This document shows, piece after piece, positions 4,312 through 12,000 of a stretch of DNA of 51,435 bases. The position numbers and the translations under genes were made by a program. Position 1 is the first letter of the stretch. Each line of letters starts with the position of its first letter. The stretch is from Acidobacteriota bacterium. Its GTDB lineage: Bacteria > Acidobacteriota > Vicinamibacteria > Vicinamibacterales > UBA2999. Location of the stretch: the NCBI GenBank assembly GCA_016190945.1, contig JACPPO010000146.1, positions 1 to 51,435 on the forward strand. The letters run 5' to 3'. Under the pieces are notes generated by a model. The model was not told the origin of the DNA, did no database searches, and worked only from the letters and a program-made list of their open reading frames with translations.

Positions 4312-5262
4312 GTGTCACTTAAGAGCCATGCCTATCCCTCGGCAGGCGATGTGAGGGTGCCGGCCTCCGTCGCCAATCTGGGTGGCGGATTCGATACCCT
4401 TGCGGTCGCGGTCCAACTGTATTTGCGCCTCCGGATCATCGAAATTCGCGAAGACGAGGGGACCAGGCTCACGGTGGTGAACAGCACCCCGCCGGTCAGC
4501 GGCAGGAACGCGGTCGAGCGGGCATTCGAGGCGATCGCGCGCTGGACGGGGCTGCGCGCCCCATCGGTCTTTGTCGAAACCGACAGCGAGATTCCGATGG
4601 CGGCCGGTCTTGGCAGCAGCGCGGCGGCGGCAGTCGCCGGCTTGCGCACGTTCGAGCGTGTCACCCAGCCGCTGCCGGAAGGCGTGCTGCTGGCGGTGGC
4701 GACGTCGCTTGAAGGGCACGCGGACAACGCGGCGGCCGCCCTGCACGGCGGGCTGACGTCTGTCGTCGAGCGGGAGGGGCGGGAGCCGCTCGCATTGCGA
4801 TGGGCGTGGCCCGAGCAAGTGCGTTTGATTGTCGCCACGCCTTCCGGCGGTCTCGCAACGTCAACGGCGCGCGCAGCGCTACCCGAGGCAGTGTCACGGA
4901 AGGACGCGGTGTTCAACCTGCAGCGGGTGCTCTCGCTCGTTCACGCGCTGCACTGCGGCGACTACGGGCGTTTGCGTGAAGCCGTTGAGGATCGGTGGCA
5001 CCAGCCGGCCCGCGCGGCTCTTGTTCCCCAGCTGGCCGCCGCGCTGGCGCTCGAGGATCCAGAGATTCTCGGGACGTTTCTCTCGGGCGCAGGGCCATCC
5101 GTTGCGCTGCTGGCTCGACGCGATTTTGGCCGCATCGAGCAGCTGCTCGCCTCAACGTACGAGCGTACGGGTTGTCCGGCGACAATCAGGACGCTCGGTG
5201 TGCACCAGGCGTTGGAGGCGGTCCCTGAAACGCTCGCCTCGGCGCATGGGAGAACCCTATGA
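4312..5262 (+). CDS. thrB: Homoserine kinase
   Basis: VPASVANLGGGFD, PMAAGLGSSAAA, EGHADN, LSGAGPS. Start uncertain. Confidence 0.93.
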   Translation: MSLKSHAYPSAGDVRVPASVANLGGGFDTLAVAVQLYLRLRIIEIREDEGTRLTVVNSTPPVSGRNAVERAFEAIARWTGLRAPSVFVETDSEIPMAAGLGSSAAAAVAGLRTFERVTQPLPEGVLLAVATSLEGHADNAAAALHGGLTSVVEREGREPLALRWAWPEQVRLIVATPSGGLATSTARAALPEAVSRKDAVFNLQRVLSLVHALHCGDYGRLREAVEDRWHQPARAALVPQLAAALALEDPEILGTFLSGAGPSVALLARRDFGRIEQLLASTYERTGCPATIRTLGVHQALEAVPETLASAHGRTL

Positions 5263-6518
5263 AATTCGTCGCGGGGCTGACCTGCCACCTGTGCGGGGCA
5301 ACGTATCCCGCCGAGGCGTTGTGGGTCTGCGTGGAGTGCCTCGGTCCCCTCGAAGTGTCGTACGACCACGCGGCGATACGCGGCGTCGTCAGCCGCGGCC
5401 TGATCGAATCGCGGCCGCCGTCCTTGTGGCGCTACCGCGAGCTGCTTCCGGTCGAGGAGCCGCGCACCGGTCTTCATTCGGGTTTCACGCCGCTCGTGCG
5501 CGCGACTCGTCTTGCGCGTGAGCTTGGGCTCGACGAGCTGTACATCAAAGACGATTCGGTGAACCATCCGACCTTTTCCTACAAGGACCGGGTCGTGTCG
5601 GTCGCGGCGACCCGCGCCGTTGAGCTGGGCTTCCAGGTGTTCGGGTGTGCGTCGACCGGCAACCTGGCCGGAAGCGTCGCCGCCCACGCGGCGCGCCTCG
5701 GGCTTCCGTGCTACGTCTTCATCCCCAACGATCTGGAGCCGGCCAAGATTCTCGGCGCCGCGATCTACGAACCGCACGTTGTAGCCGTCGAAGGCAACTA
5801 CGACGACGTGAACCGGCTGTGCACGCAAATCGCGGATCGCTACGGGTGGGGATTTGCGAACATCAATCTGCGCGCCTACTACGCCGAAGGCGCCAAGACG
5901 ATGGGCTTTGAGATTGCCGAGCAGCTCGGATGGCGCTTCCCCGACCACATCGTGTCGCCGGTTGCGGGCGGGACGCTCCTGCCGCGCATTTTCAAGGGCC
6001 TTCGCGAGCTGCGCGACGTCGGGCTCGTCAGCGGCCAGTTGCCGAAGATTCATGCCGCGCAGCCCTCCGGCTCCGCGCCTGTGATCAAGGCGATTGAAGC
6101 CGGCCTGGAGTTCCCGGAGCCGGTCAAGCCGAACACGATCGCGAAGTCGCTGGCGATTGGGAATCCGGCCGATGGATTCCAGGTCGTAAGGGTGGTAAAG
6201 GAGACCGGCGCGACCGGGGCCATGGTGAGCGACGAGGAGATCCTGGACGCCGTCCAGCTCCTGGCCCGGACGGAGGGCATTTTCGCGGAGGCCGCCGGCG
6301 GGACCACGCTGGCGGCCACGCGCGCGCTCATCAGGCGCGGCGTCATCAAGTCCAGCGAGTCCGTGGTGGTGTGTATCACCGGAAACGGCTTCAAGACCGC
6401 CGACGTGATGTTCGACCGGGTCGCGCGGCCGACCCAGATCGGCCGCGGACTGGCCGATTTCGAGCGCGTGCTTGGCTCACAGATTGGCGTCGTGGCCGCC
6501 GCTGCGGCGCGCGCGTAA
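5259..6518 (+). CDS. thrC: Threonine synthase (fold-type II PLP)
   Basis: N-terminal CxxC..CxxC, PTFSYKDR, CASTGNLA, ITGNGFK; overlaps thrB stop. Confidence 0.9.
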   Translation: MKFVAGLTCHLCGATYPAEALWVCVECLGPLEVSYDHAAIRGVVSRGLIESRPPSLWRYRELLPVEEPRTGLHSGFTPLVRATRLARELGLDELYIKDDSVNHPTFSYKDRVVSVAATRAVELGFQVFGCASTGNLAGSVAAHAARLGLPCYVFIPNDLEPAKILGAAIYEPHVVAVEGNYDDVNRLCTQIADRYGWGFANINLRAYYAEGAKTMGFEIAEQLGWRFPDHIVSPVAGGTLLPRIFKGLRELRDVGLVSGQLPKIHAAQPSGSAPVIKAIEAGLEFPEPVKPNTIAKSLAIGNPADGFQVVRVVKETGATGAMVSDEEILDAVQLLARTEGIFAEAAGGTTLAATRALIRRGVIKSSESVVVCITGNGFKTADVMFDRVARPTQIGRGLADFERVLGSQIGVVAAAAARA

Positions 6519-6568
6519 ATACGCTTCGAAATCGCGTCGAGCCATAAGTAAGTGTTCCCGAGCGGAAT

Positions 6569-6598
6569 TTGACGTTTCGGGGCCCCAGGTTATAGAAT
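6569..6598 (+). promoter_or_regulatory. sigma70-type promoter of the Cys leader/siroheme operon
   Basis: TTGACG-N18-TAGAAT, ending 9 nt before the leader ATG. Confidence 0.65.
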
Positions 6599-6607
6599 CC
6601 GGACGTC

Positions 6608-6700
6608 ATGTTGTCCAGTTGCGGCCGGCCGGCTGCCTGTTACTGTACGAGGACCTGTCAGGTCCGGGCGCTGTCGGTCCGTCGCGTGGGTAACGATTAA
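6608..6700 (+). CDS. Putative Cys-rich attenuator leader peptide, MLSSCGRPAACYCTRTCQVRALSVRRVGND
   Basis: ATG 6608 to TAA 6700; Cys codons at 6620, 6638, 6644 and 6656; lies between promoter and intrinsic terminator ahead of sulfur assimilation genes. Confidence 0.75.
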   Translation: MLSSCGRPAACYCTRTCQVRALSVRRVGND

Positions 6701-6726
6701 CGAACCCGACAACACGCACACGATCG

Positions 6727-6764
6727 AAAGCCCGGAACCGAAATTCCGGGCTTTTTGTTTTTTT
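6727..6764 (+). terminator. Intrinsic terminator (attenuator) before the siroheme genes
   Basis: AAAGCCCGGAA-ccgaaa-TTCCGGGCTTT then TTGTTTTTTT; GGAG and ATG 6772 follow directly. Confidence 0.9.
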
Positions 6765-6771
6765 GGAGACG

Positions 6772-7329
6772 ATGTTTCCAGTTTTTCTGAACCTCGAATC
6801 GCGCCGCGTCGTCGTGGTCGGCGGCGGGCCAGTGGCGGCCGGCAAGATCGAGGCGTTGCTGGCGGCCGGCGCGGACGTGACCGTGGTCGCGCCCCACGTG
6901 CGGCCGGAGATCGAGCGACCCGGGGTGCAGGTAGTCCGCCGACGCTTCGAAGACGCCGACTTGAACGGCGCGTGGTGGGTAGTCGCGGCCGCGCCCCAAG
7001 ACGTCAATAAGCAGGTGCTGGCTGCGGCGGAGGCACGGCAGATCTTCGTGAACGCAGTCGACGACCCCGGCCATGCCACCGCCTATCTCGGTGGAGTCGT
7101 GCGCCGGCACGGCGTTACGGTGGCGATTTCCACCGACGGCCGCGCACCGGCGCTGGCGGGGCTGCTGCGCGAGGCGCTGGACGCCTGGTTGCCCGGCGAT
7201 CTCGATGAGTGGATGGCGGCGGCCGATGAGGCGCGGCGCACGTGGAAAACGGAGGCGGTGCCGATGGACCAGCGCCGTTGGCAGCTGCTTCAGACGTTGA
7301 ACAGGTTGTATGCCGAGCGTACGAGGTAG
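6772..7329 (+). CDS. Precorrin-2 dehydrogenase / sirohydrochlorin ferrochelatase (CysG N-terminal-like)
   Basis: MFPVFLNL, VVGGGPVA, FVNAVDDP, VAISTDGRAP; RBS GGAG at 6765. Confidence 0.9.
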   Translation: MFPVFLNLESRRVVVVGGGPVAAGKIEALLAAGADVTVVAPHVRPEIERPGVQVVRRRFEDADLNGAWWVVAAAPQDVNKQVLAAAEARQIFVNAVDDPGHATAYLGGVVRRHGVTVAISTDGRAPALAGLLREALDAWLPGDLDEWMAAADEARRTWKTEAVPMDQRRWQLLQTLNRLYAERTR

Positions 7330-8089
7330 CGTGTCGCTCGTCGGTGCCGGCCCGTGGGATCCCGAGCTCTGGACGGTGCGCGCGGTGCGGCGCCTTGAAG
7401 AGGCCGACCTAGTGCTGTACGACGCCCTGGTCGATGTGGAGGCGCTGCGGCGTGCGACCAAGGCGCAGTGCTTCTGCGTCGGCAAGCGCGCCCGCCGTGA
7501 CAGCGTACCGCAAGAGACCATCCACCGCCTGATGATTCGCGCGGCGAAGCAGGGCAAGCGGGTGGTCCGCCTGAAGGGCGGGGACCCGTTCGTCTTTGGG
7601 CGCGGCGGGGAGGAAGCGCTTGCGCTGGTAATGGCCGGCGTGCCCTTCGAGGTCGTTCCCGGGGTCACGACCGCCGTGGCGGCACCGGAGCTCGCGGGAA
7701 TCCCGGTGACGCACCGCGGCATCGCGTCGGCGTTTCTCGTGTTGGCGGGTCACACGGCGGACGCCGTTGATAACACGCTGCGGTCCGTGCGGCCGAATAC
7801 GGTGTCGATGGTCATCCTGATGGGCGTCGGCGCGCGGGCAGACCTTGCGTCGAGGGTGATGGCGCACGGCTGGTCCGCGGACACCCCGGCGGCCATTGTG
7901 TGCGGGGCGTCGACGCCGGACGCCTGGACGTGGACCGGGACGCTCGTGCAGCTCGGCGGGGCGACGCCGCCCGCCGGCCTTCCCGGCGTGCTGGTCATCG
8001 GCGAAGTGGTGCGGGTACGTGAGGTGCTGGCGACGGCATCCAGGGCGGAACAGGCCGACACTGAGGTGAGTTATGGCCGTAACGGATGA
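7310..8089 (+). CDS. cobA: Uroporphyrinogen-III C-methyltransferase
   Basis: VGAGP(W)DP, LYDALV, VVRLKGGDPFVFGRGGEE, PVTHRG. Confidence 0.93.
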   Translation: MPSVRGSVSLVGAGPWDPELWTVRAVRRLEEADLVLYDALVDVEALRRATKAQCFCVGKRARRDSVPQETIHRLMIRAAKQGKRVVRLKGGDPFVFGRGGEEALALVMAGVPFEVVPGVTTAVAAPELAGIPVTHRGIASAFLVLAGHTADAVDNTLRSVRPNTVSMVILMGVGARADLASRVMAHGWSADTPAAIVCGASTPDAWTWTGTLVQLGGATPPAGLPGVLVIGEVVRVREVLATASRAEQADTEVSYGRNG

Positions 8090-9902
8090 GGCGCCGACGT
8101 TCGGACGGGGACGTCCGTCGTTCGCCAACGAGCGGGACGTCGACGAGTTCGTCGATACCTTGAGGCGCTACGAGAACGGCGAAATCTCCGCCGACGACTG
8201 GCGGCGGTTCCGCCTCCTGCGCGGCACCTACGGGCAGCGGCAGGACGGGGTGCAGATGATGCGGATCAAGATTCCGCAGGGCATCGTCACCGGCGGCCAG
8301 CTTCGCACGCTCGGCGACGTCGCGGCGAAGTACTCGCGCGGCTTTGGCCACGTAACGACCCGCCAGAACATCCAATATCACTTCGTACTGTTGAAGGACG
8401 CCGAGCTGGTGATGCGCGACCTCGCCGAAGTGGGCATGACCACGCGCGAGGCCTGCGGCAACTCGGTGCGCAACATCACCGCGTGCCCGTATGCCGGCGT
8501 CGCCCACGACGAGGTGTTCGACGTGACGCCGTACGCCGAGGGGATGACGCGGTATTTCCTCGGACATCCGCTTGCGGGCTCGTTGCCGCGCAAGTTCAAG
8601 ATCGCGTTCGAGGGCTGTCCTCACGATCATGCGCTGGTCTCCATTCACGACCTCGGGTGGTTCGCGCGCAGCGTCAACGGCCGGCGCGGCTTCCGGCTGA
8701 CTATCGCCGGCGGCACGTCGATTCTGCCGACCTCGGGGTACCTGCTGTACGAATTTCTCCCCGCCGAACAGATGCTCGAGGTGGCGGAAGCGATCGTCCG
8801 GGTGTACCACCGCCTCGGCGACCGCCAGCACCCCCAGCGGAACCGCATGAAGTTCCTCATTCGTCAGCTCGGATGGGACGCGTGGCGGCAGAAGTTCGAC
8901 GAGACGCTGGCGGAGGTTCGTTCGGAGGGCGGTGTCCCTTTCAATGCGAGCGCGGTCGCCTCGGCGCTTGAACGCGCGCCGGACTGGCCCGCATCGCCGG
9001 CTCCCTCGCTCGAGAAGGTCAAGCGGACGGTGGCCGGCGTGGACGTCCACGGCCCGGGGATCATGCCTGGGACCGTGAAGCTGCAGACGTTCGCCGACGC
9101 TTATCTCAGATGGATGCACACCAATGTCGGACTTCAGCGCCAGGCCGGCTTCGTACACGTGACCGTGCGCCTGCCGCTGGGCGACATGACCGCCGGCCAG
9201 ATGCATGTGCTGGCCGACCTCGCGGAGGCGTACGGCGACGGCACGGCGCGGCTCACTATCGGACAGAACGTGTTGTTCCGATGGGTGAAGGTTGGCGCGA
9301 TCCAGGAGCTGTATCAGCGATTGCAAGCGGCGGGACTCGGGTCGGCCGGAGCGAACACGGTTGCCGACGTGGTGAGCTGTCCTGGTGCCGAAAGCTGCCG
9401 CCTGGCGGTCACGCAGTCGCGCGGACTCGGACGCATCTTGACCGAATACCTGGATCGTCGCCCGGAATTGGTGGCGCTCGTCCAGGAAGGGGACATCAAG
9501 ATCAGCGGCTGCCCCAACGGCTGCGGCCAGCACCACATTGCCGCCATCGGCTTCCAGGGGAGCGTCCGCAAGGTGGGCAACCAGGCGCTTCCGCAGTATT
9601 TCGTCTTGGTCGGCGGCGGCAGCACCGAGTCAGGCGCGCAATTCGGGCGGGTGGTGTCGAAAGTCCCGGTCCGCCGCCTGACGACCGCGATCGATCGGCT
9701 GCTGACGCTCTACCAGGAGCGGCGCGACCCGGGCGAATCGCCGGGTGCGTTCTTCAGGCGTATCCCCGCGGCGACCGCAACCGACGCGTTGAAGGATCTC
9801 GCGCAGGTTCTGCCGAATGAGACAACCGCAGACGACTATATCGATCTGGGCGAAACGGGGACGTTCGAAATGGTCGTGATGGACGGGGAGTGCGCCTCGT
9901 AG
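8073..9902 (+). CDS. Ferredoxin-type sulfite/nitrite reductase (siroheme, 4Fe-4S)
   Basis: TTRQNIQ, LPRKFKIA, RNRMKFL, SCPGAESC, ISGCPNGC. Sulfite as substrate is inferred from the Cys leader. Confidence 0.92.
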   Translation: MAVTDEAPTFGRGRPSFANERDVDEFVDTLRRYENGEISADDWRRFRLLRGTYGQRQDGVQMMRIKIPQGIVTGGQLRTLGDVAAKYSRGFGHVTTRQNIQYHFVLLKDAELVMRDLAEVGMTTREACGNSVRNITACPYAGVAHDEVFDVTPYAEGMTRYFLGHPLAGSLPRKFKIAFEGCPHDHALVSIHDLGWFARSVNGRRGFRLTIAGGTSILPTSGYLLYEFLPAEQMLEVAEAIVRVYHRLGDRQHPQRNRMKFLIRQLGWDAWRQKFDETLAEVRSEGGVPFNASAVASALERAPDWPASPAPSLEKVKRTVAGVDVHGPGIMPGTVKLQTFADAYLRWMHTNVGLQRQAGFVHVTVRLPLGDMTAGQMHVLADLAEAYGDGTARLTIGQNVLFRWVKVGAIQELYQRLQAAGLGSAGANTVADVVSCPGAESCRLAVTQSRGLGRILTEYLDRRPELVALVQEGDIKISGCPNGCGQHHIAAIGFQGSVRKVGNQALPQYFVLVGGGSTESGAQFGRVVSKVPVRRLTTAIDRLLTLYQERRDPGESPGAFFRRIPAATATDALKDLAQVLPNETTADDYIDLGETGTFEMVVMDGECAS

Positions 9903-10161
9903 CCGGTAGTCGGCTAGTTAGGAGTTGGCAGCGCTACCAACCACCGTGTTATCGCTCGCGAAAACGCTCGATTCGTTTCTCGTCCTCGGGCGTTTCGGTG
10001 TCGCGCGGGTTGACATCGCGTTCCGACGTCCTCGCCGACTGTGGCACTGTGCCTGATCCGTCGGAAGAGCAGGTGAGCGCGTGTCCGGCGCTGCGGGTGC
10101 CTCGGTCATCGTTCCTCTCCAGTACTATCCCACCTATAATCGCGTACGATTCGAAACATAG

Positions 10162-11181
10162 ATGGGAAAGCTGAAGATCATCGTGCTATACGACCGAGTC
10201 CTCGTGGACGATACCGAGGCGCCGGCGACCGGCGACAAGGCGCCCGTGGTGCGCACGCTCGACAGGAAAGAGGTCGAGGAGGAGGTCACCGAAGCTCTGA
10301 CCAAGCTCGGTCACGACCCGGTGATGTACGAGCTCGACGGCACCCAGAAGAGCCTCCTTGGCCTTGCCAAGGTGGAATGCGACCTTGTGTTCAACCTGGC
10401 GGAATCGTTCGCCGACGACGACACGGCCGACTTCAAGATTGCCGCGTTCCTCGAATTGCTCGGGAAGAAGTACACCGGCACCGGCACCAACGGGTTGATG
10501 CTGGCGCAGGACAAGGCGGTCGCGAAGAAGATCTTCGCATTTCACGGCATCCACACGCCGACATTTGCGAAGTCCTACCGCGGCCGGCTCGATTTCTCCC
10601 ACGATCTCCAGTTTCCCGTCATCGTGAAGCCGGCCCGCGAGGACGGCTCCATCGGCATCGAGTTCAGCGCGGTGGTGAACTCCATCCGCGAGCTGATGGA
10701 GCGGATGGACTGGCTCCATGCCAACTTCGATTCGCCTGTCCTGATCGAGGAGTACATCGAGGGCCGGGAGATGTACGTCGGCGTGATCGGCAACGACAAT
10801 GCGGAAGCGCTGCCGATTGTGGAACTGGACTTGTCCAAACTGCCCGGCGGCACGCCGCGCATTGCGGCGGCAGAGGTGAAGTGGGGCAAGGGCACCAAGA
10901 CGTACCGGGATACGAAGTCGGCGATTGCGACCGACCTGCCGGAAGAAACGACGCAAACGTTGCAGCAGACTGCCATTGCCGCGTATCAGGCGCTGGAGCT
11001 TCGGGACTACGGCCGCGTGGATATGCGGCTGCAGGCTGATGGCCGGGTGCAGGTGATCGAAGTCAATCCGAACCCGTGGCTCAGCTCCCGCGCGGAGTTT
11101 GCCATGGCGGCGCGCAAGTCCGGGCGAACCTACACGCGCCTGGTCGAAGAGATCATCGAGCTAGCCACGGCCCGGGCCTAG
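10162..11181 (+). CDS. D-Ala-D-Ala ligase-family ATP-grasp protein
   Basis: VFNLAE, YTG, DKAVAK, PVIVKP..EDGSIGI, EEYIEGRE, RDYGRVD, EVNPNP; lacks the canonical Ddl GEDG motif. Confidence 0.85.
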   Translation: MGKLKIIVLYDRVLVDDTEAPATGDKAPVVRTLDRKEVEEEVTEALTKLGHDPVMYELDGTQKSLLGLAKVECDLVFNLAESFADDDTADFKIAAFLELLGKKYTGTGTNGLMLAQDKAVAKKIFAFHGIHTPTFAKSYRGRLDFSHDLQFPVIVKPAREDGSIGIEFSAVVNSIRELMERMDWLHANFDSPVLIEEYIEGREMYVGVIGNDNAEALPIVELDLSKLPGGTPRIAAAEVKWGKGTKTYRDTKSAIATDLPEETTQTLQQTAIAAYQALELRDYGRVDMRLQADGRVQVIEVNPNPWLSSRAEFAMAARKSGRTYTRLVEEIIELATARA

Positions 11182-11708
11182 GGCCGTACCCGTCCGTCCA
11201 CCTTCCATAAATAGAGCGTTCGGGATTGGCCGTCTGCGCTTGTGAAGACATCGACAACATCCGGGTCCCAGTCACCCATCGCGAAGTTGTGCGACACGAT
11301 GCGGGCACCGGGTCGAAGCTGCCGAGTGAGAATCGGCCGGAGCTGCACGTTTTGCGCGGACAGCAAGTACAGCGTAACGACCGTCGCCTCGGATACATCC
11401 GTGTCCAGCGCGTCCTGGAGCTTGAACGTGACCAGGTGCTCGACCTGTGCGCGGGCGGCGTTCCGTTGCGCCTCAGCGATGCGCACCGGGTCGATGTCCA
11501 CCCCGACGCCGTGGGCCCCGAACTTCTGCGCCGCGGCGATGACGACGCGGCCATCGCCGCAGCCCAAGTCGTACACCACGTCGCGCGAGGTGACCGTAGC
11601 CAGCGCGAGCATCCGGGCGACGACATCCGGAGGCGTGGCCACGTACGGCGCGCGAGGAACCTGCGGCGCCGCCACGCCAAGCAGCAAAGCCAGAAGCAAG
11701 TGGGCCAT
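11178..11708 (-). CDS. Class I SAM-dependent methyltransferase with hydrophobic N-terminus
   Basis: PYVATP, YDLGCGDGR, VTLYL, LRPGARIVSH. Confidence 0.88.
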   Translation of the reverse strand: MAHLLLALLLGVAAPQVPRAPYVATPPDVVARMLALATVTSRDVVYDLGCGDGRVVIAAAQKFGAHGVGVDIDPVRIAEAQRNAARAQVEHLVTFKLQDALDTDVSEATVVTLYLLSAQNVQLRPILTRQLRPGARIVSHNFAMGDWDPDVVDVFTSADGQSRTLYLWKVDGRVRP

Positions 11709-11937
11709 TGACCGATTTTAGCGACGGTTCCGAAGAAGGAGCCCCACGTCCATACGCCCGTAGGCTTGGGCCGCCTTCGGGATGAGACCGACGGTCTCGG
11801 CCTCGGCTGTCGCAGCAGAGGACGCAAGCGGGTCTGGCGCGTCATTTCGTGAAGCCGCCGCTCAAGTCCCCACGAATCCGAGGGTTACGGCCCGCTTGGG
11901 CCGTGGCAGCCAGCGTACGCGGCGCCAGCCCACGGTC

Positions 11938-11965
11938 AAACGGCAGGATTAAACGGCAGGGTTAA
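11938..11965. repeat. 13-bp direct repeat upstream of the carD promoter
   Basis: AAACGGCAGGATT AAACGGCAGGGTT AA. Confidence 0.6.
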
Positions 11966-12000
11966 GGTGCCAAAATGGGCTCATTCTTGGCCATTTCCCG

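What the first reader, a model, noticed from the sequence alone, without database searches (positions are those of the whole stretch)
6569..6774. Cysteine-codon attenuator with intrinsic terminator before the siroheme/sulfite reductase operon
Seen: promoter TTGACG-N18-TAGAAT, then a nearly leaderless 30-codon ORF (6608-6700) with 4 Cys codons. Competing pairings: GGACCT/AGGTCC (6651-6665, over the last Cys codon); GGTCCGGGC (6661-6669) with GCCCGGAACC (6730-6739), enclosing TGTCGG/CCGACA; and the terminator at 6727-6764. Established: leaderless poly-Cys sORF attenuators exist in mycobacteria; enterobacteria use CysB and Firmicutes use T-boxes or CymR. Inference: a trp-style Rho-independent Cys-tRNA-sensing attenuator of sulfur assimilation, which also points to sulfite as the reductase substrate.
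Basis: partly seen in the sequence, partly recalled or inferred. Interest (0 to 1): 0.85.

Follow-up and report, generated by a model that had tools for sequence, protein, structure and literature searches.

The report
Cysteine-sensing leader-peptide attenuator of sulfur genes
A tiny cysteine-rich reading frame followed by a transcription stop signal sits in front of the sulfur-assimilation genes and most likely turns them on when the cell runs short of cysteine; the same device is kept in front of two to three sulfur operons across an order of poorly studied Acidobacteria.

Summary
Promoter (6569-6598), a 30-codon ORF starting 9 nt after the -10 box (6608-6700, 4 Cys codons), competing pairings and an intrinsic terminator (6726-6764) abutting the sirC start (6772) are all present. 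Alone they are not beyond chance (fold z -1.87), but comparison makes the case.

A covariance model of the leader hits 88 of 151 genomes of the same family and other families of the order (by relatives' record titles, Vicinamibacterales, Acidobacteriota). A second copy in the same genome precedes cysD-cysN-cysH. Across 55 distinct leaders:
- The ORF averages 5.6 Cys in 25-33 codons, with core C-x-C-A-C-C-C.
- Indels keep the reading frame inside the ORF but not after it.
- The terminator and the anti-antiterminator helices covary.
- An antiterminator that uses the terminator's 5' arm forms in 53 of 55 when a ribosome stalled at the Cys run is simulated.

Best reading (0.85): a classical ribosome-mediated, Cys-tRNA-sensing transcription attenuator with near-leaderless translation. 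It is a new family (no Rfam match) of a known kind. Mycobacterial poly-Cys sORFs act on translation, and predicted Cys-uORF terminators precede cysS elsewhere. No expression data exist. The window copy has a weakened Cys run (C-Y-C).

The parts
6569..6574 (+). -35 hexamer TTGACG
   Evidence: TTG at a 16-18 nt spacer is found in 25 of 29 related leaders.
6593..6598 (+). -10 hexamer TAGAAT, 9 nt before the sORF start, leaving no room for a Shine-Dalgarno site
   Evidence: A TAnnnT box lies 7-10 nt before the start in 27 of 29 leaders.
6608..6700 (+). Leader ORF of 30 codons plus stop: MLSSCGRPAACYCTRTCQVRALSVRRVGND*
   Evidence: Relatives share the consensus M-L/F-x-x-C-x-x-x-C-A-C-C-C-x-G-T-..-V-P-A-L-S-V-R. 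Indels keep the frame in 52 of 55 and 53 of 55 comparisons inside the ORF.
6638..6646 (+). Regulatory core TGT-TAC-TGT (C-Y-C), where relatives have TGT-TGT-TGY (C-C-C). Further Cys codons lie at 6620-6622 and 6656-6658.
   Evidence: Contigs of a close relative keep Tyr here and gain a Cys at codon 6.
6608..6615 (+). 5' strand of long-range helix P1 (AUGUUGUC, includes the start codon). It pairs with 6708-6715.
   Evidence: MFE. Helix 1: 6 of 7 pairs have changes on both sides, and 79% of cells are paired.
6621..6655 (+). Region 1, the anti-antiterminator strand. It pairs with region 2 (helices 2-6 of the model, including GGACC 6651-6655), and a ribosome stalled at codons 11-13 would cover it.
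   Evidence: helices 2-6 are 79-98% paired, with compensatory changes. In 40 of 55 leaders, at least 8 nt of region 2 pair with region 1 in the free full-length MFE.
6659..6685 (+). Region 2. It pairs either with region 1 or with region 3; the antiterminator strands are GGTCCGGGC 6661-6669 and TCGGTC 6674-6679.
6688..6707 (+). Small hairpin GGGT...ACCC with the sORF stop codon (6698-6700) in its loop
   Evidence: Helix 7: all 4 pairs have compensatory changes, and 93% of cells are paired. Its nucleotides are conserved although they are read in different frames in 28- and 30-codon leaders.
6708..6717 (+). Conserved box GACAACACGC, the 3' strand of P1
   Evidence: Nearly invariant CAACACG in A3.
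6722..6739 (+). Region 3: GATCGA plus the terminator 5' arm. It pairs with region 2 (antiterminator) or region 4 (terminator).
6726..6764 (+). Intrinsic terminator: a 12-bp stem (6726-6737 with 6744-6755), loop CCGAAA, and a T-rich tail to 6764
   Evidence: Helix 8: 98% of cells are paired and 4 pairs have compensatory changes.
6772..7329 (+). sirC (siroheme synthase N-terminal-domain protein), the first controlled gene
   Evidence: Pfam NAD_binding_7; TIGR01470 cysG_Nterm, 148 bits against a cutoff of 62.
7310..8089 (+). cobA (uroporphyrinogen-III C-methyltransferase)
   Evidence: NF004790, 254 bits against a cutoff of 198.
8073..9902 (+). Siroheme sulfite/nitrite reductase (609 aa), read as sulfite reductase from its regulatory context
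   Evidence: Pfam NIR_SIR and NIR_SIR_ferr. The best NCBIfam match is 'NirA family' at 281 bits, below its cutoff of 523.

Best explanation
This is a ribosome-mediated transcription attenuator that senses charged tRNA-Cys and controls the siroheme/sulfite-reductase operon.

Transcription starts a few bases before the ATG at 6608, so the 30-codon leader ORF would be translated without a Shine-Dalgarno site (near-leaderless).

When cysteine is plentiful, the ribosome runs through to the stop codon. The 5' half of the ORF (region 1) then re-pairs with region 2. This leaves region 3 free to form the 12-bp terminator with region 4, and RNA polymerase stops at the T-run 8 nt before sirC.

When Cys-tRNA is scarce, the ribosome stalls on the Cys codons of the core (codons 11-13) and covers region 1. 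Region 2 (6661-6679) is then free to pair with region 3 (6722-6739) as soon as region 3 is made. The terminator's 5' arm is occupied, so polymerase reads through into sirC-cobA-sir.

Without any ribosome, helix P1 (start codon with the CAACAC box) and the region 1:2 pairing favour termination.

Shown here:
- the anatomy of the element;
- its conservation and its linkage to sulfur genes;
- frame-preserving evolution of the ORF;
- covariation of the terminated fold;
- a conserved ability to form the antiterminator.

Inferred: the transcription start site, translation of the ORF, stalling, and the response to cysteine.
For: 1. Conservation. BLAST finds the leader at 74-77% identity in 6 related genomes, twice in two of them, plus a second copy in the window's own genome. 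Model R1 hits 88 of 151 genomes and 37 of 41 genera of the family (this tally includes the unpublished G076 and G042). It hits 54 of 151 genomes of the order, in 14 of 19 families. I inspected 10 loci from the order-level scan (nine from families other than the window's, one from its own), and all 10 carry a poly-Cys sORF before a terminator.

2. Regulon. Downstream lie sirC (13 loci), cysD (12) or an unclear gene (3) among 28 loci. The own-genome second copy precedes CysD (463 bits against a cutoff of 413), CysN (523 against 336) and CysH (199 against 154). A third leader type in relatives precedes YeiH-family (PF03601) and TauE transporters.

3. Coding signal.
- 50 of 55 distinct leaders start with GTG or ATG at model position 1.
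- They have 25-33 codons and a mean of 5.6 Cys. That is about 20% of codons, against 1.07% in the genome's long ORFs.
- Lengths from start to core and from core to region 2 keep one phase in 52 of 55 and 53 of 55. Two noncoding spacers split 26/19/10 and 29/14/12.
- Divergent leader types share only the Cys run.

4. Promoter position. A -10 box lies 7-10 nt before the start in 27 of 29 leaders.

5. Structure.
- The terminated fold is 91% paired. 24 of 38 pairs have changes on both sides, and 0 of 500 shuffles reach this.
- Antiterminator helix 1 (9 pairs) is 89% paired. The whole antiterminator is 78% paired, against 27-50% when slid.
- One position covaries in all three strands: GCG in 19 leaders and CGC in 13, of 55.
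- Median duplex energies are -11.2 (1:2), -25.2 (2:3) and -22.6 (3:4) kcal/mol.
- With region 1 masked and region 4 not yet made, 53 of 55 leaders pair at least 6 nt of the terminator 5' arm with region 2. Free full-length RNA has the terminator in 53 of 55.
- The window copy behaves the same way.

6. No other promoter. Only 7 nt lie between the T-run and the sirC ATG, and no other promoter-like site occurs in 5000-12000.
Against: - There are no expression data.
- In the full-length RNA the terminator stays in the MFE even with the ribosome mask. In the nascent window RNA the antiterminator is the MFE even without a ribosome, or with one at the stop codon. The decision must therefore be kinetic (order of folding), which folding energies cannot show.
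- The window copy has only 4 Cys and no two in a row (C-Y-C), the weakest run seen. A ribosome stalled at its fourth Cys (6656) would cover region 2 and favour termination.
- On the antiterminator, the number of pairs with changes on both sides (7) is no better than shuffles (mean 7.4; 399 of 500 reach it). My two outermost pairs are only 28% paired. 15 of 55 leaders have a C-C mismatch at the covarying position.
- A4 was aligned to the terminated structure, which favours that fold.
- 63 of 151 family genomes gave no hit.
- I know of no evidence for leaderless translation in Acidobacteriota, and I ran no search specifically for it.
Confidence: 0.85

Rival explanations
1. The leader is a structured RNA switch, either a metabolite riboswitch or a protein- or tRNA-bound leader, that controls the same terminator. 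On this reading the open frame is not translated, and the Cys codons are a by-product of conserved pairing (UGUUG with CAACA).
For: - Much of the ORF is base-paired, and its nucleotides are conserved beyond what the peptide needs. The 3' end GGGTAAC is conserved although read in two frames.
- The Cys-codon stretch GCGTGTTG is complementary to the conserved CAACACGC box (reading).
- TGT makes up 66% of leader Cys codons, against about 25% genome-wide. This could reflect a pairing constraint.
Against: - Indels keep the frame inside the ORF only.
- The start codon sits at a fixed 7-10 nt from the -10 box.
- Unrelated leader types in the order share nothing but a run of 3-7 Cys codons in an ORF before a terminator.
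- No Rfam family matches.
Confidence: 0.05
2. The sORF is a real small gene for a Cys-rich micropeptide (metal or redox binding, or a modified-peptide precursor) with its own ordinary terminator. On this reading its position before sirC is incidental, or the peptide acts in trans.
For: The peptide core CxCACCC and VPALSVR are conserved across genera. Leader peptides with trans functions are known: peTrpL in PMC7298713, of which I saw only the search listing and the start of its abstract.
Against: - The VPALSVR codons coincide with the antiterminator strand.
- C-termini and stop positions vary.
- Other leader types have unrelated peptides.
- The downstream gene has no room for its own promoter; the gap is usually -10 to +13 nt.
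- The element is tied to sulfur genes at two or three loci per genome.
Confidence: 0.04
3. The element is a ribosome-dependent attenuator, but it does not read out Cys-tRNA. It may sense general translation stress, or act mainly on translation of sirC or through Rho, as the mycobacterial sORFs act on translation.
For: - The window copy has a weak Cys run.
- In relatives the T-run abuts the start codon with no Shine-Dalgarno site, so the terminator hairpin could also affect initiation.
- The mycobacterial precedent is translational (10.1101/834739; abstract and discussion read).
Against: - The only feature shared by all leader types is the Cys run.
- The controlled genes make sulfide for cysteine.
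- A canonical terminator with a U-run is conserved and covaries.
Confidence: 0.05

Closest known systems
Classical leader-peptide transcription attenuators of amino-acid operons (trp, his, leu, thr, ilv and pheA of Proteobacteria; Rfam Trp_leader, Thr_leader and others)
   Same: - Short ORF rich in codons for the pathway's end product.
- Four-region logic: 1:2 and 3:4 against 2:3.
- Intrinsic terminator just before the first gene.
   Different: - The codons are Cys.
- The ORF appears to start 1-3 nt from the transcript's 5' end, with no Shine-Dalgarno site.
- An extra long-range helix pairs the start codon with a conserved CAACAC box.
- The lineage is different (Acidobacteriota).
- There is no sequence match: the best Rfam hit, Thr_leader, scores 22.6 bits against a gathering score of 55, and the match lies mostly in the terminator.
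Mycobacterial poly-Cys leaderless sORFs, the 'Cys ribulon' (Canestrari et al., bioRxiv 10.1101/834739; abstract and discussion read)
   Same: - Leaderless, Cys-rich sORFs.
- Several cysteine/sulfur loci per genome, giving a regulon without a transcription factor.
   Different: - In the locus dissected there, the stalled ribosome frees a sequestered ribosome-binding site (translational control). The authors contrast this with terminator-based attenuation.
- Here a conserved intrinsic terminator and antiterminator are the output.
- The window copy lacks two consecutive Cys codons, which was their search criterion.
Cys leader peptides of Actinobacteria predicted by Seliverstov et al. 2005 (PMC1262725; passages read)
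   Same: Short ORFs with runs of Cys codons upstream of cys/cbs operons.
   Different: That paper states that no conserved terminator hairpins were found and suggests Rho. Here the terminator is the best-conserved part.
uORFC-8-2 motif upstream of cysS in Rhodobacterales (Brewer et al. 2021, PMC8632094; passage read), and the leaderless 10-aa Cys-Cys leader of cysS in Deinococcus deserti (de Groot et al. 2014, PMC4007540; passages read)
   Same: - Predicted ribosome-mediated attenuation by Cys codons.
- Rhodobacterales: an intrinsic terminator stem.
- D. deserti: a leaderless start.
   Different: - Those control cysteinyl-tRNA synthetase, with two Cys codons.
- This element controls sulfate activation, sulfite reduction, siroheme synthesis and putative sulfur transporters, with 4-8 Cys codons.
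- Sequence relatedness was not tested, because I held no model or sequences of those motifs.

Membership tests
Ribosome-mediated (leader-peptide) transcription attenuator | Short ORF at the 5' end of the transcript with a usable start | tested here: met
   ATG at 6608, 9 nt after the -10 box. GTG or ATG sits at model position 1 in 50 of 55 leaders. A -10 box lies 7-10 nt upstream in 27 of 29. Translation itself is not shown.
Ribosome-mediated (leader-peptide) transcription attenuator | Enrichment of codons for the amino acid that the operon helps to make | tested here: met
   4 Cys in 30 codons in the window. Mean of 5.6 Cys in 25-33 codons across 50 leaders, against 1.07% Cys in the genome's long ORFs. 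The window copy has no tandem Cys.
Ribosome-mediated (leader-peptide) transcription attenuator | Intrinsic terminator between the ORF and the first structural gene | tested here: met
   12-bp stem plus T-run at 6726-6764. Helix 8 is 98% paired with compensatory changes.
Ribosome-mediated (leader-peptide) transcription attenuator | Antiterminator that competes for the terminator's 5' arm | tested here: met
   (window); helix 1 is 89% paired, but pair-count measures are no better than shuffles; three-way covariation in 32 of 55; forms in 53 of 55.
Ribosome-mediated (leader-peptide) transcription attenuator | Anti-antiterminator (1:2) that a ribosome stalled at the regulatory codons would cover | tested here: met
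   Helices 2-6 covary. Masking up to 12 nt past codon 11 or 13 frees region 2. The footprint size is an assumption.
Ribosome-mediated (leader-peptide) transcription attenuator | Readthrough rises on starvation for the amino acid | not testable with these tools
   Needs RNA 3'-end mapping or reporters.
Mycobacterial poly-Cys leaderless sORF attenuators (Canestrari et al.) | Transcript begins at the sORF start codon | tested here: inconclusive
   Promoter spacing predicts a 5' UTR of about 1-3 nt. No start-site data exist.
Mycobacterial poly-Cys leaderless sORF attenuators (Canestrari et al.) | At least two consecutive Cys codons | tested here: not met
   The window copy reads C-Y-C. The second copy in the genome and 28 of 28 related loci do have consecutive Cys codons (CCC in 26, CC in two).
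Mycobacterial poly-Cys leaderless sORF attenuators (Canestrari et al.) | Output is unmasking of the downstream ribosome-binding site (translational) | tested here: not met
   The output structure here is a terminator with a U-run. The hairpin does not include the sirC start.
Rfam leader families (Thr_leader, Trp_leader and others) | Score at or above the family's gathering threshold | tested here: not met
   The best hit is Thr_leader at 22.6 bits against a threshold of 55. Trp_leader scores 14.4 against 41.

The most novel reading that the evidence does not exclude
An order of Acidobacteriota (Vicinamibacterales) may run its whole sulfate-assimilation regulon without a dedicated transcription factor. 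Control would come from paralogous, near-leaderless poly-Cys leader ORFs, each coupled to a classical terminator/antiterminator switch. The operons so controlled would be cysDNH, sirC-cobA-sir, and YeiH- or TauE-type transporters. The conserved helix between the 5'-terminal start codon and the CAACAC box would act as a timer. It would close the leaderless start once polymerase nears the terminator, so that only a ribosome loaded co-transcriptionally can decide the outcome.
Probability: 0.3. Interest if true: 0.65.

Novelty: new member of a known kind. Interest (0 to 1): 0.5.

Why it matters
- It gives a testable answer to how an abundant but poorly studied soil and groundwater lineage regulates sulfur assimilation. 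No CysB-, CymR- or T-box-type control needs to be invoked.
- It defines an RNA family with no Rfam match that is ready for curation: 55 distinct sequences with covariation.
- It supports calling the NirA-like reductase a sulfite reductase.
- It marks the YeiH- and TauE-family transporters behind the third leader type as sulfur-related.
- It suggests that leaderless translation works in Acidobacteriota.
- It extends Cys-codon attenuation from translational control (mycobacteria) and cysS (Rhodobacterales, Deinococcus) to terminator-based control of the biosynthetic pathway itself.

Tried and rejected
- Rfam scan of 6300-7000 at E up to 10: nothing near any gathering score.
- RNAalifold on the gappy sub-alignment of regions 2-3 did not recover the antiterminator. 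I defined it from one reference sequence and from per-sequence folds instead.
- Equilibrium folds of the full-length window RNA with a ribosome mask keep the terminator. They therefore cannot show the switch.
- My first two scripts for distances and for terminators had faults: regexes that caught the GTGTTG start and a search range that was too short. They were replaced.
- R1 at phylum level: outside the order only short weak hits. The six loci from outside the order that I inspected were plain terminators, except one analogous poly-Cys ORF in G309.
- Expression: no RNA holder was listed for window 6000-7600. The four runs laid are DNA contigs and say nothing on transcripts.
- Literature. Five searches found no paper on a Cys attenuator in Acidobacteria or Vicinamibacterales, or on a terminator-based Cys attenuator of sulfate-assimilation genes. 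Supplements were closed and not seen. These include Table S2 of 10.1101/834739, the list of 14 leader peptides in PMC4007540, and the motif files of PMC8632094. They could hold related cases.
- The idea that the terminator merely ends the upstream hom-thrB-thrC operon was rejected. The element travels with sirC or cysD in other contexts, and a promoter lies between thrC and the terminator.
- The protein-structure and complex-prediction tools were not used, as they have no bearing on the question.
Full report
**What is in the window**

Between the stop of a PLP-dependent enzyme gene at 6518 and the siroheme gene sirC lies a 250-nt leader. The PLP-enzyme gene is the last of a homoserine dehydrogenase, GHMP kinase and PLP-enzyme run, which I read as hom-thrB-thrC. 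In the leader:

- Promoter: TTGACG (6569-6574), 18 nt, then TAGAAT (6593-6598). This is the only sigma-70-like site in 5000-12000.
- sORF: nine bases after the -10 box, ATG 6608 opens a 30-codon frame, MLSSCGRPAACYCTRTCQVRALSVRRVGND, stop 6698-6700.
- Cys codons: 6620, 6638, 6644 and 6656.
- Terminator: a 12-bp hairpin (6726-6755) with a T-run to 6764.
- sirC: its ATG is at 6772.
- Downstream: sirC (TIGR01470), cobA (NF004790) and a 609-aa siroheme NIR_SIR reductase follow with overlapping ends.

Taken alone this is weak evidence:

- Promoter-like and terminator-like sites occur at the rate expected from shuffles.
- The fold of 6605-6775 has z -1.87.
- No Rfam family comes near its threshold. 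The best is Thr_leader at 22.6 bits against 55, and that match is mostly terminator.

**Conservation**

- BLAST of 6519-6790 against 41 related genomes found the part from the start codon to the terminator at 74-77% identity. It occurs in six other genomes, twice in two of them, and a second time in the window's own genome on contig C91.
- All ten leaders have the same layout: promoter, start codon 7-10 nt after the -10 box, Cys-rich ORF, hairpins, terminator, gene.
- A covariance model of these ten (A3, R1) hits 88 of 151 genomes and 37 of 41 genera of the family, with one to three copies each. This tally includes two unpublished genomes, G076 and G042, whose loci I did not analyse.
- R1 hits 54 of 151 genomes of the order, in 14 of 19 families.
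- Outside the order, R1 gives only short weak hits that are plain terminators, apart from one analogous poly-Cys ORF.
- A pattern scan of 185,579 species' genomes returned 80 loci. Of these, 57 are titled Acidobacteria, Acidobacteriota, Vicinamibacterales or Solibacteraceae. Three of those records have the contig lengths of G017, G014 and G004. So the window's relatives are Acidobacteriota, and by many titles Vicinamibacterales (taxonomy). Some titles are clearly unreliable; see the passing notes.

**What the element controls**

- In 28 top loci the next gene is sirC-like in 13 and cysD-like in 12. It was unclear in 3, where my script took another frame.
- The second copy in the own genome (L141 10213-10371, minus strand) is followed by CysD, CysN and CysH, all above the NCBIfam cutoffs.
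- The two leader-controlled operons therefore cover sulfate activation, APS/PAPS reduction, siroheme synthesis and the six-electron reductase. Sequence alone cannot decide: 'NirA family' scores 281 bits, below its cutoff.
- A third, more distant leader type (MF..CACCCC.GA.AS.GRAVS..) occurs in relatives. It precedes a YeiH-family (PF03601) membrane protein or a TauE-family protein; single cases precede a redoxin-domain protein or an ATP-grasp protein. A separate poly-Cys leader from the pattern scan (L065) precedes a porin O/P-like protein.

**Evidence that the frame is read**

- Across the 55 distinct rows of the model alignment A4, 50 begin with GTG (46) or ATG (4) at model position 1. They have 25-33 codons and a mean of 5.6 Cys. 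That is about one codon in five, against 1.07% in the genome's long ORFs.
- Length differences keep the frame inside the ORF. The start-to-core distance is 27, 30 or 36 nt in 52 of 55. The core-to-region-2 distance is 19, 22, 25, 31 or 34 nt in 53 of 55.
- Two spacers after the stop codon vary freely: mod-3 classes split 26/19/10 and 29/14/12.
- Leader types that cannot be aligned with each other share only a run of 3-7 Cys codons. Examples are MFSGNLCACNCCCCMQ.., VKMMQACACCCCCVAD.. and ..TACCCCCCCPVAAE...
- The -10 box lies 7-10 nt before the start in 27 of 29 leaders, and TTG lies at 16-18 nt spacing in 25 of 29. This leaves no room for a Shine-Dalgarno site, so translation would have to be leaderless or nearly so. 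That is an inference.
- TGT makes up 66% of leader Cys codons, against about 25% genome-wide. The genome figure is rough because long spurious ORFs were counted too.

**RNA structure**

The consensus 'off' fold has four parts:

- P1: the start codon region pairs with a conserved GACAACAC box.
- Anti-antiterminator: the 5' half of the ORF pairs with region 2, including the GGACC/GGTCC hairpin.
- A small hairpin carries the stop codon in its loop.
- The terminator.

On A4 this fold is 91% paired. 24 of 38 pairs have changes on both sides, and no shuffle in 500 reaches any of the five measures. The caveat is that A4 was aligned to this structure.

The 'on' fold pairs region 2 with GATCGA and the terminator's 5' arm:

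- Its main helix (9 pairs) is 89% paired. The whole is 78% paired, against 27-50% for slid partners.
- Two of five measures are no better than shuffles, and my two outermost pairs fail (28% paired).
- One position changes together in regions 2, 3 and 4: GCG in 19 leaders, CGC in 13, with a mismatch in 15, of 55.
- Median duplex energies are -11.2 (1:2), -25.2 (2:3) and -22.6 (3:4) kcal/mol. The 2:3 duplex is 3.2 sd better than shuffles of region 2.

Simulated states support the switch:

- With region 4 not yet transcribed and region 1 masked as by a stalled ribosome, 53 of 55 leaders pair at least 6 nt of the terminator arm with region 2.
- Free full-length RNAs have the terminator in 53 of 55, and region 1:2 pairing of at least 8 nt in 40 of 55.
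- In the window, a ribosome with its A site at Cys11 or Cys13 gives the antiterminator: 6661-6669 with 6730-6739, and 6674-6679 with 6722-6727. One at Cys17 covers region 2 and abolishes it.

**Limits**

- Equilibrium folds do not reproduce the decision. The full-length RNA prefers the terminator under every mask. The nascent window RNA prefers the antiterminator even without a ribosome. As in other attenuators, the outcome must depend on folding order and ribosome position, which I could not simulate.
- The window copy is the poorest in Cys that I saw (4, core C-Y-C). Contigs from two runs match it exactly apart from one T fewer in the T-run. A related strain in another study keeps the Tyr codon, has GTG as start, gains a Cys at codon 6, and has Met-Gly at codons 14-15 like the family consensus.

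**Comparison with what is known**

- Classical attenuation is the functional model.
- For cysteine, the literature I could read offers four precedents:
  - Cys leader peptides in Actinobacteria 'without obvious terminators' (PMC1262725; passages).
  - Mycobacterial leaderless poly-Cys sORFs. These relieve sequestration of a ribosome-binding site and define a 'ribulon'. The authors contrast this with terminator-based attenuation (10.1101/834739; abstract and discussion).
  - A predicted Cys-Cys uORF with an intrinsic terminator before cysS in Rhodobacterales (PMC8632094; passage).
  - A leaderless 10-aa Cys-Cys leader before cysS in Deinococcus deserti (PMC4007540; passages).
- A survey of premature terminators does not mention a Cys leader in the passages found (PMC2965389).
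- Five full-text searches gave nothing on Acidobacteria or on terminator-based Cys control of sulfate assimilation. Supplements were closed.
- The element is therefore a new family of a known kind. It combines the leaderless poly-Cys sensor known from mycobacteria with the classical terminator/antiterminator output, in a different phylum and on the assimilation genes themselves.

**Verdict**

- Confidence that this is a Cys-tRNA-sensing transcription attenuator: 0.85.
- Interest: 0.5. This is a solid, curatable regulatory RNA family and an order-wide sulfur regulon, but the principle is expected from precedent.

Noticed in passing
window 6536-6565: A 30-nt repeat (GTCGAGCCATAAGTAAGTGTT.CCGAGCGG) lies between the thrC stop and the -35 box. 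The incomplete genome holds 4 copies. G014 shows 15 short matches to this segment and G001 12, several about 50-90 nt from contig ends. Its 31-mers reach depth 105 against 17 for the flanks. One contig of a related strain lacks 6525-6565, with 5 other letters in its place. It looks like the end or remnant of a small mobile element.
   Followed up: partly
L141 (G000:C91) 10213-10371, minus strand: Second copy of the leader in the same genome, with a full C-A-C-C-C core (MLSMCGRPCACCCMGTCRVPALSVRVHG). It lies directly before cysD-cysN-cysH. A CMAS-type methyltransferase and an FAD-binding protein follow on the same strand.
   Followed up: yes
L142-L147, L150, L151, L155 (relatives): A third leader type (MF..CACCCC.GA.AS.GRAVS..) with its own terminator. 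It precedes a YeiH-family (PF03601) membrane protein or a TauE-family protein, and once an ATP-grasp protein. The inspected YeiH/TauE loci lie in genomes with two or three R1 matches. These may be sulfur transporters of the same regulon.
   Followed up: partly
L079 and L103 (records titled Lachnospiraceae): A 38-51-codon ORF with two Cys runs (CCCCC and CCCC) followed by a terminator. It lies upstream of a Cys/Met-metabolism PLP enzyme, PF01053, E 4e-153 for L079. This may be an analogous Cys attenuator in Firmicutes; I did not look for it in the literature.
   Followed up: partly
L161 (G309:C143), same phylum, other family: Analogous but unalignable leader, MHRTAQAPLHATCCCSCSTQGAGASRRRR*, before a terminator. 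The downstream gene was not examined.
   Followed up: no
L088, L097, L101, L107 (record titles): These four loci carry record titles of Bifidobacterium, Bifidobacteriaceae or Acidimicrobiia. L101 and L097 carry leaders identical to those of genomes placed in the window's family (G066, G024). L088 and L107 carry other poly-Cys leaders before sirC-like genes. The titles of some binned genomes seem wrong, so taxon names from titles should be used with care.
   Followed up: partly
window 6756-6774, and relatives' leader-gene junctions: The terminator's T-run runs almost into the start codon of the controlled gene. The gap is -10 to +13 nt in 24 of the 28 loci, often with no Shine-Dalgarno site, for example TTTTTTTATG in G014. 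In the window, GGAG sits only 3 nt before the ATG. How sirC is initiated on readthrough transcripts is unclear.
   Followed up: no
window 9890-10174 (+): A 94-aa ORF overlaps the end of the reductase gene and the start of a D-Ala-D-Ala-ligase-like gene. It has no Pfam or NCBIfam match and may belong to the controlled operon.
   Followed up: no
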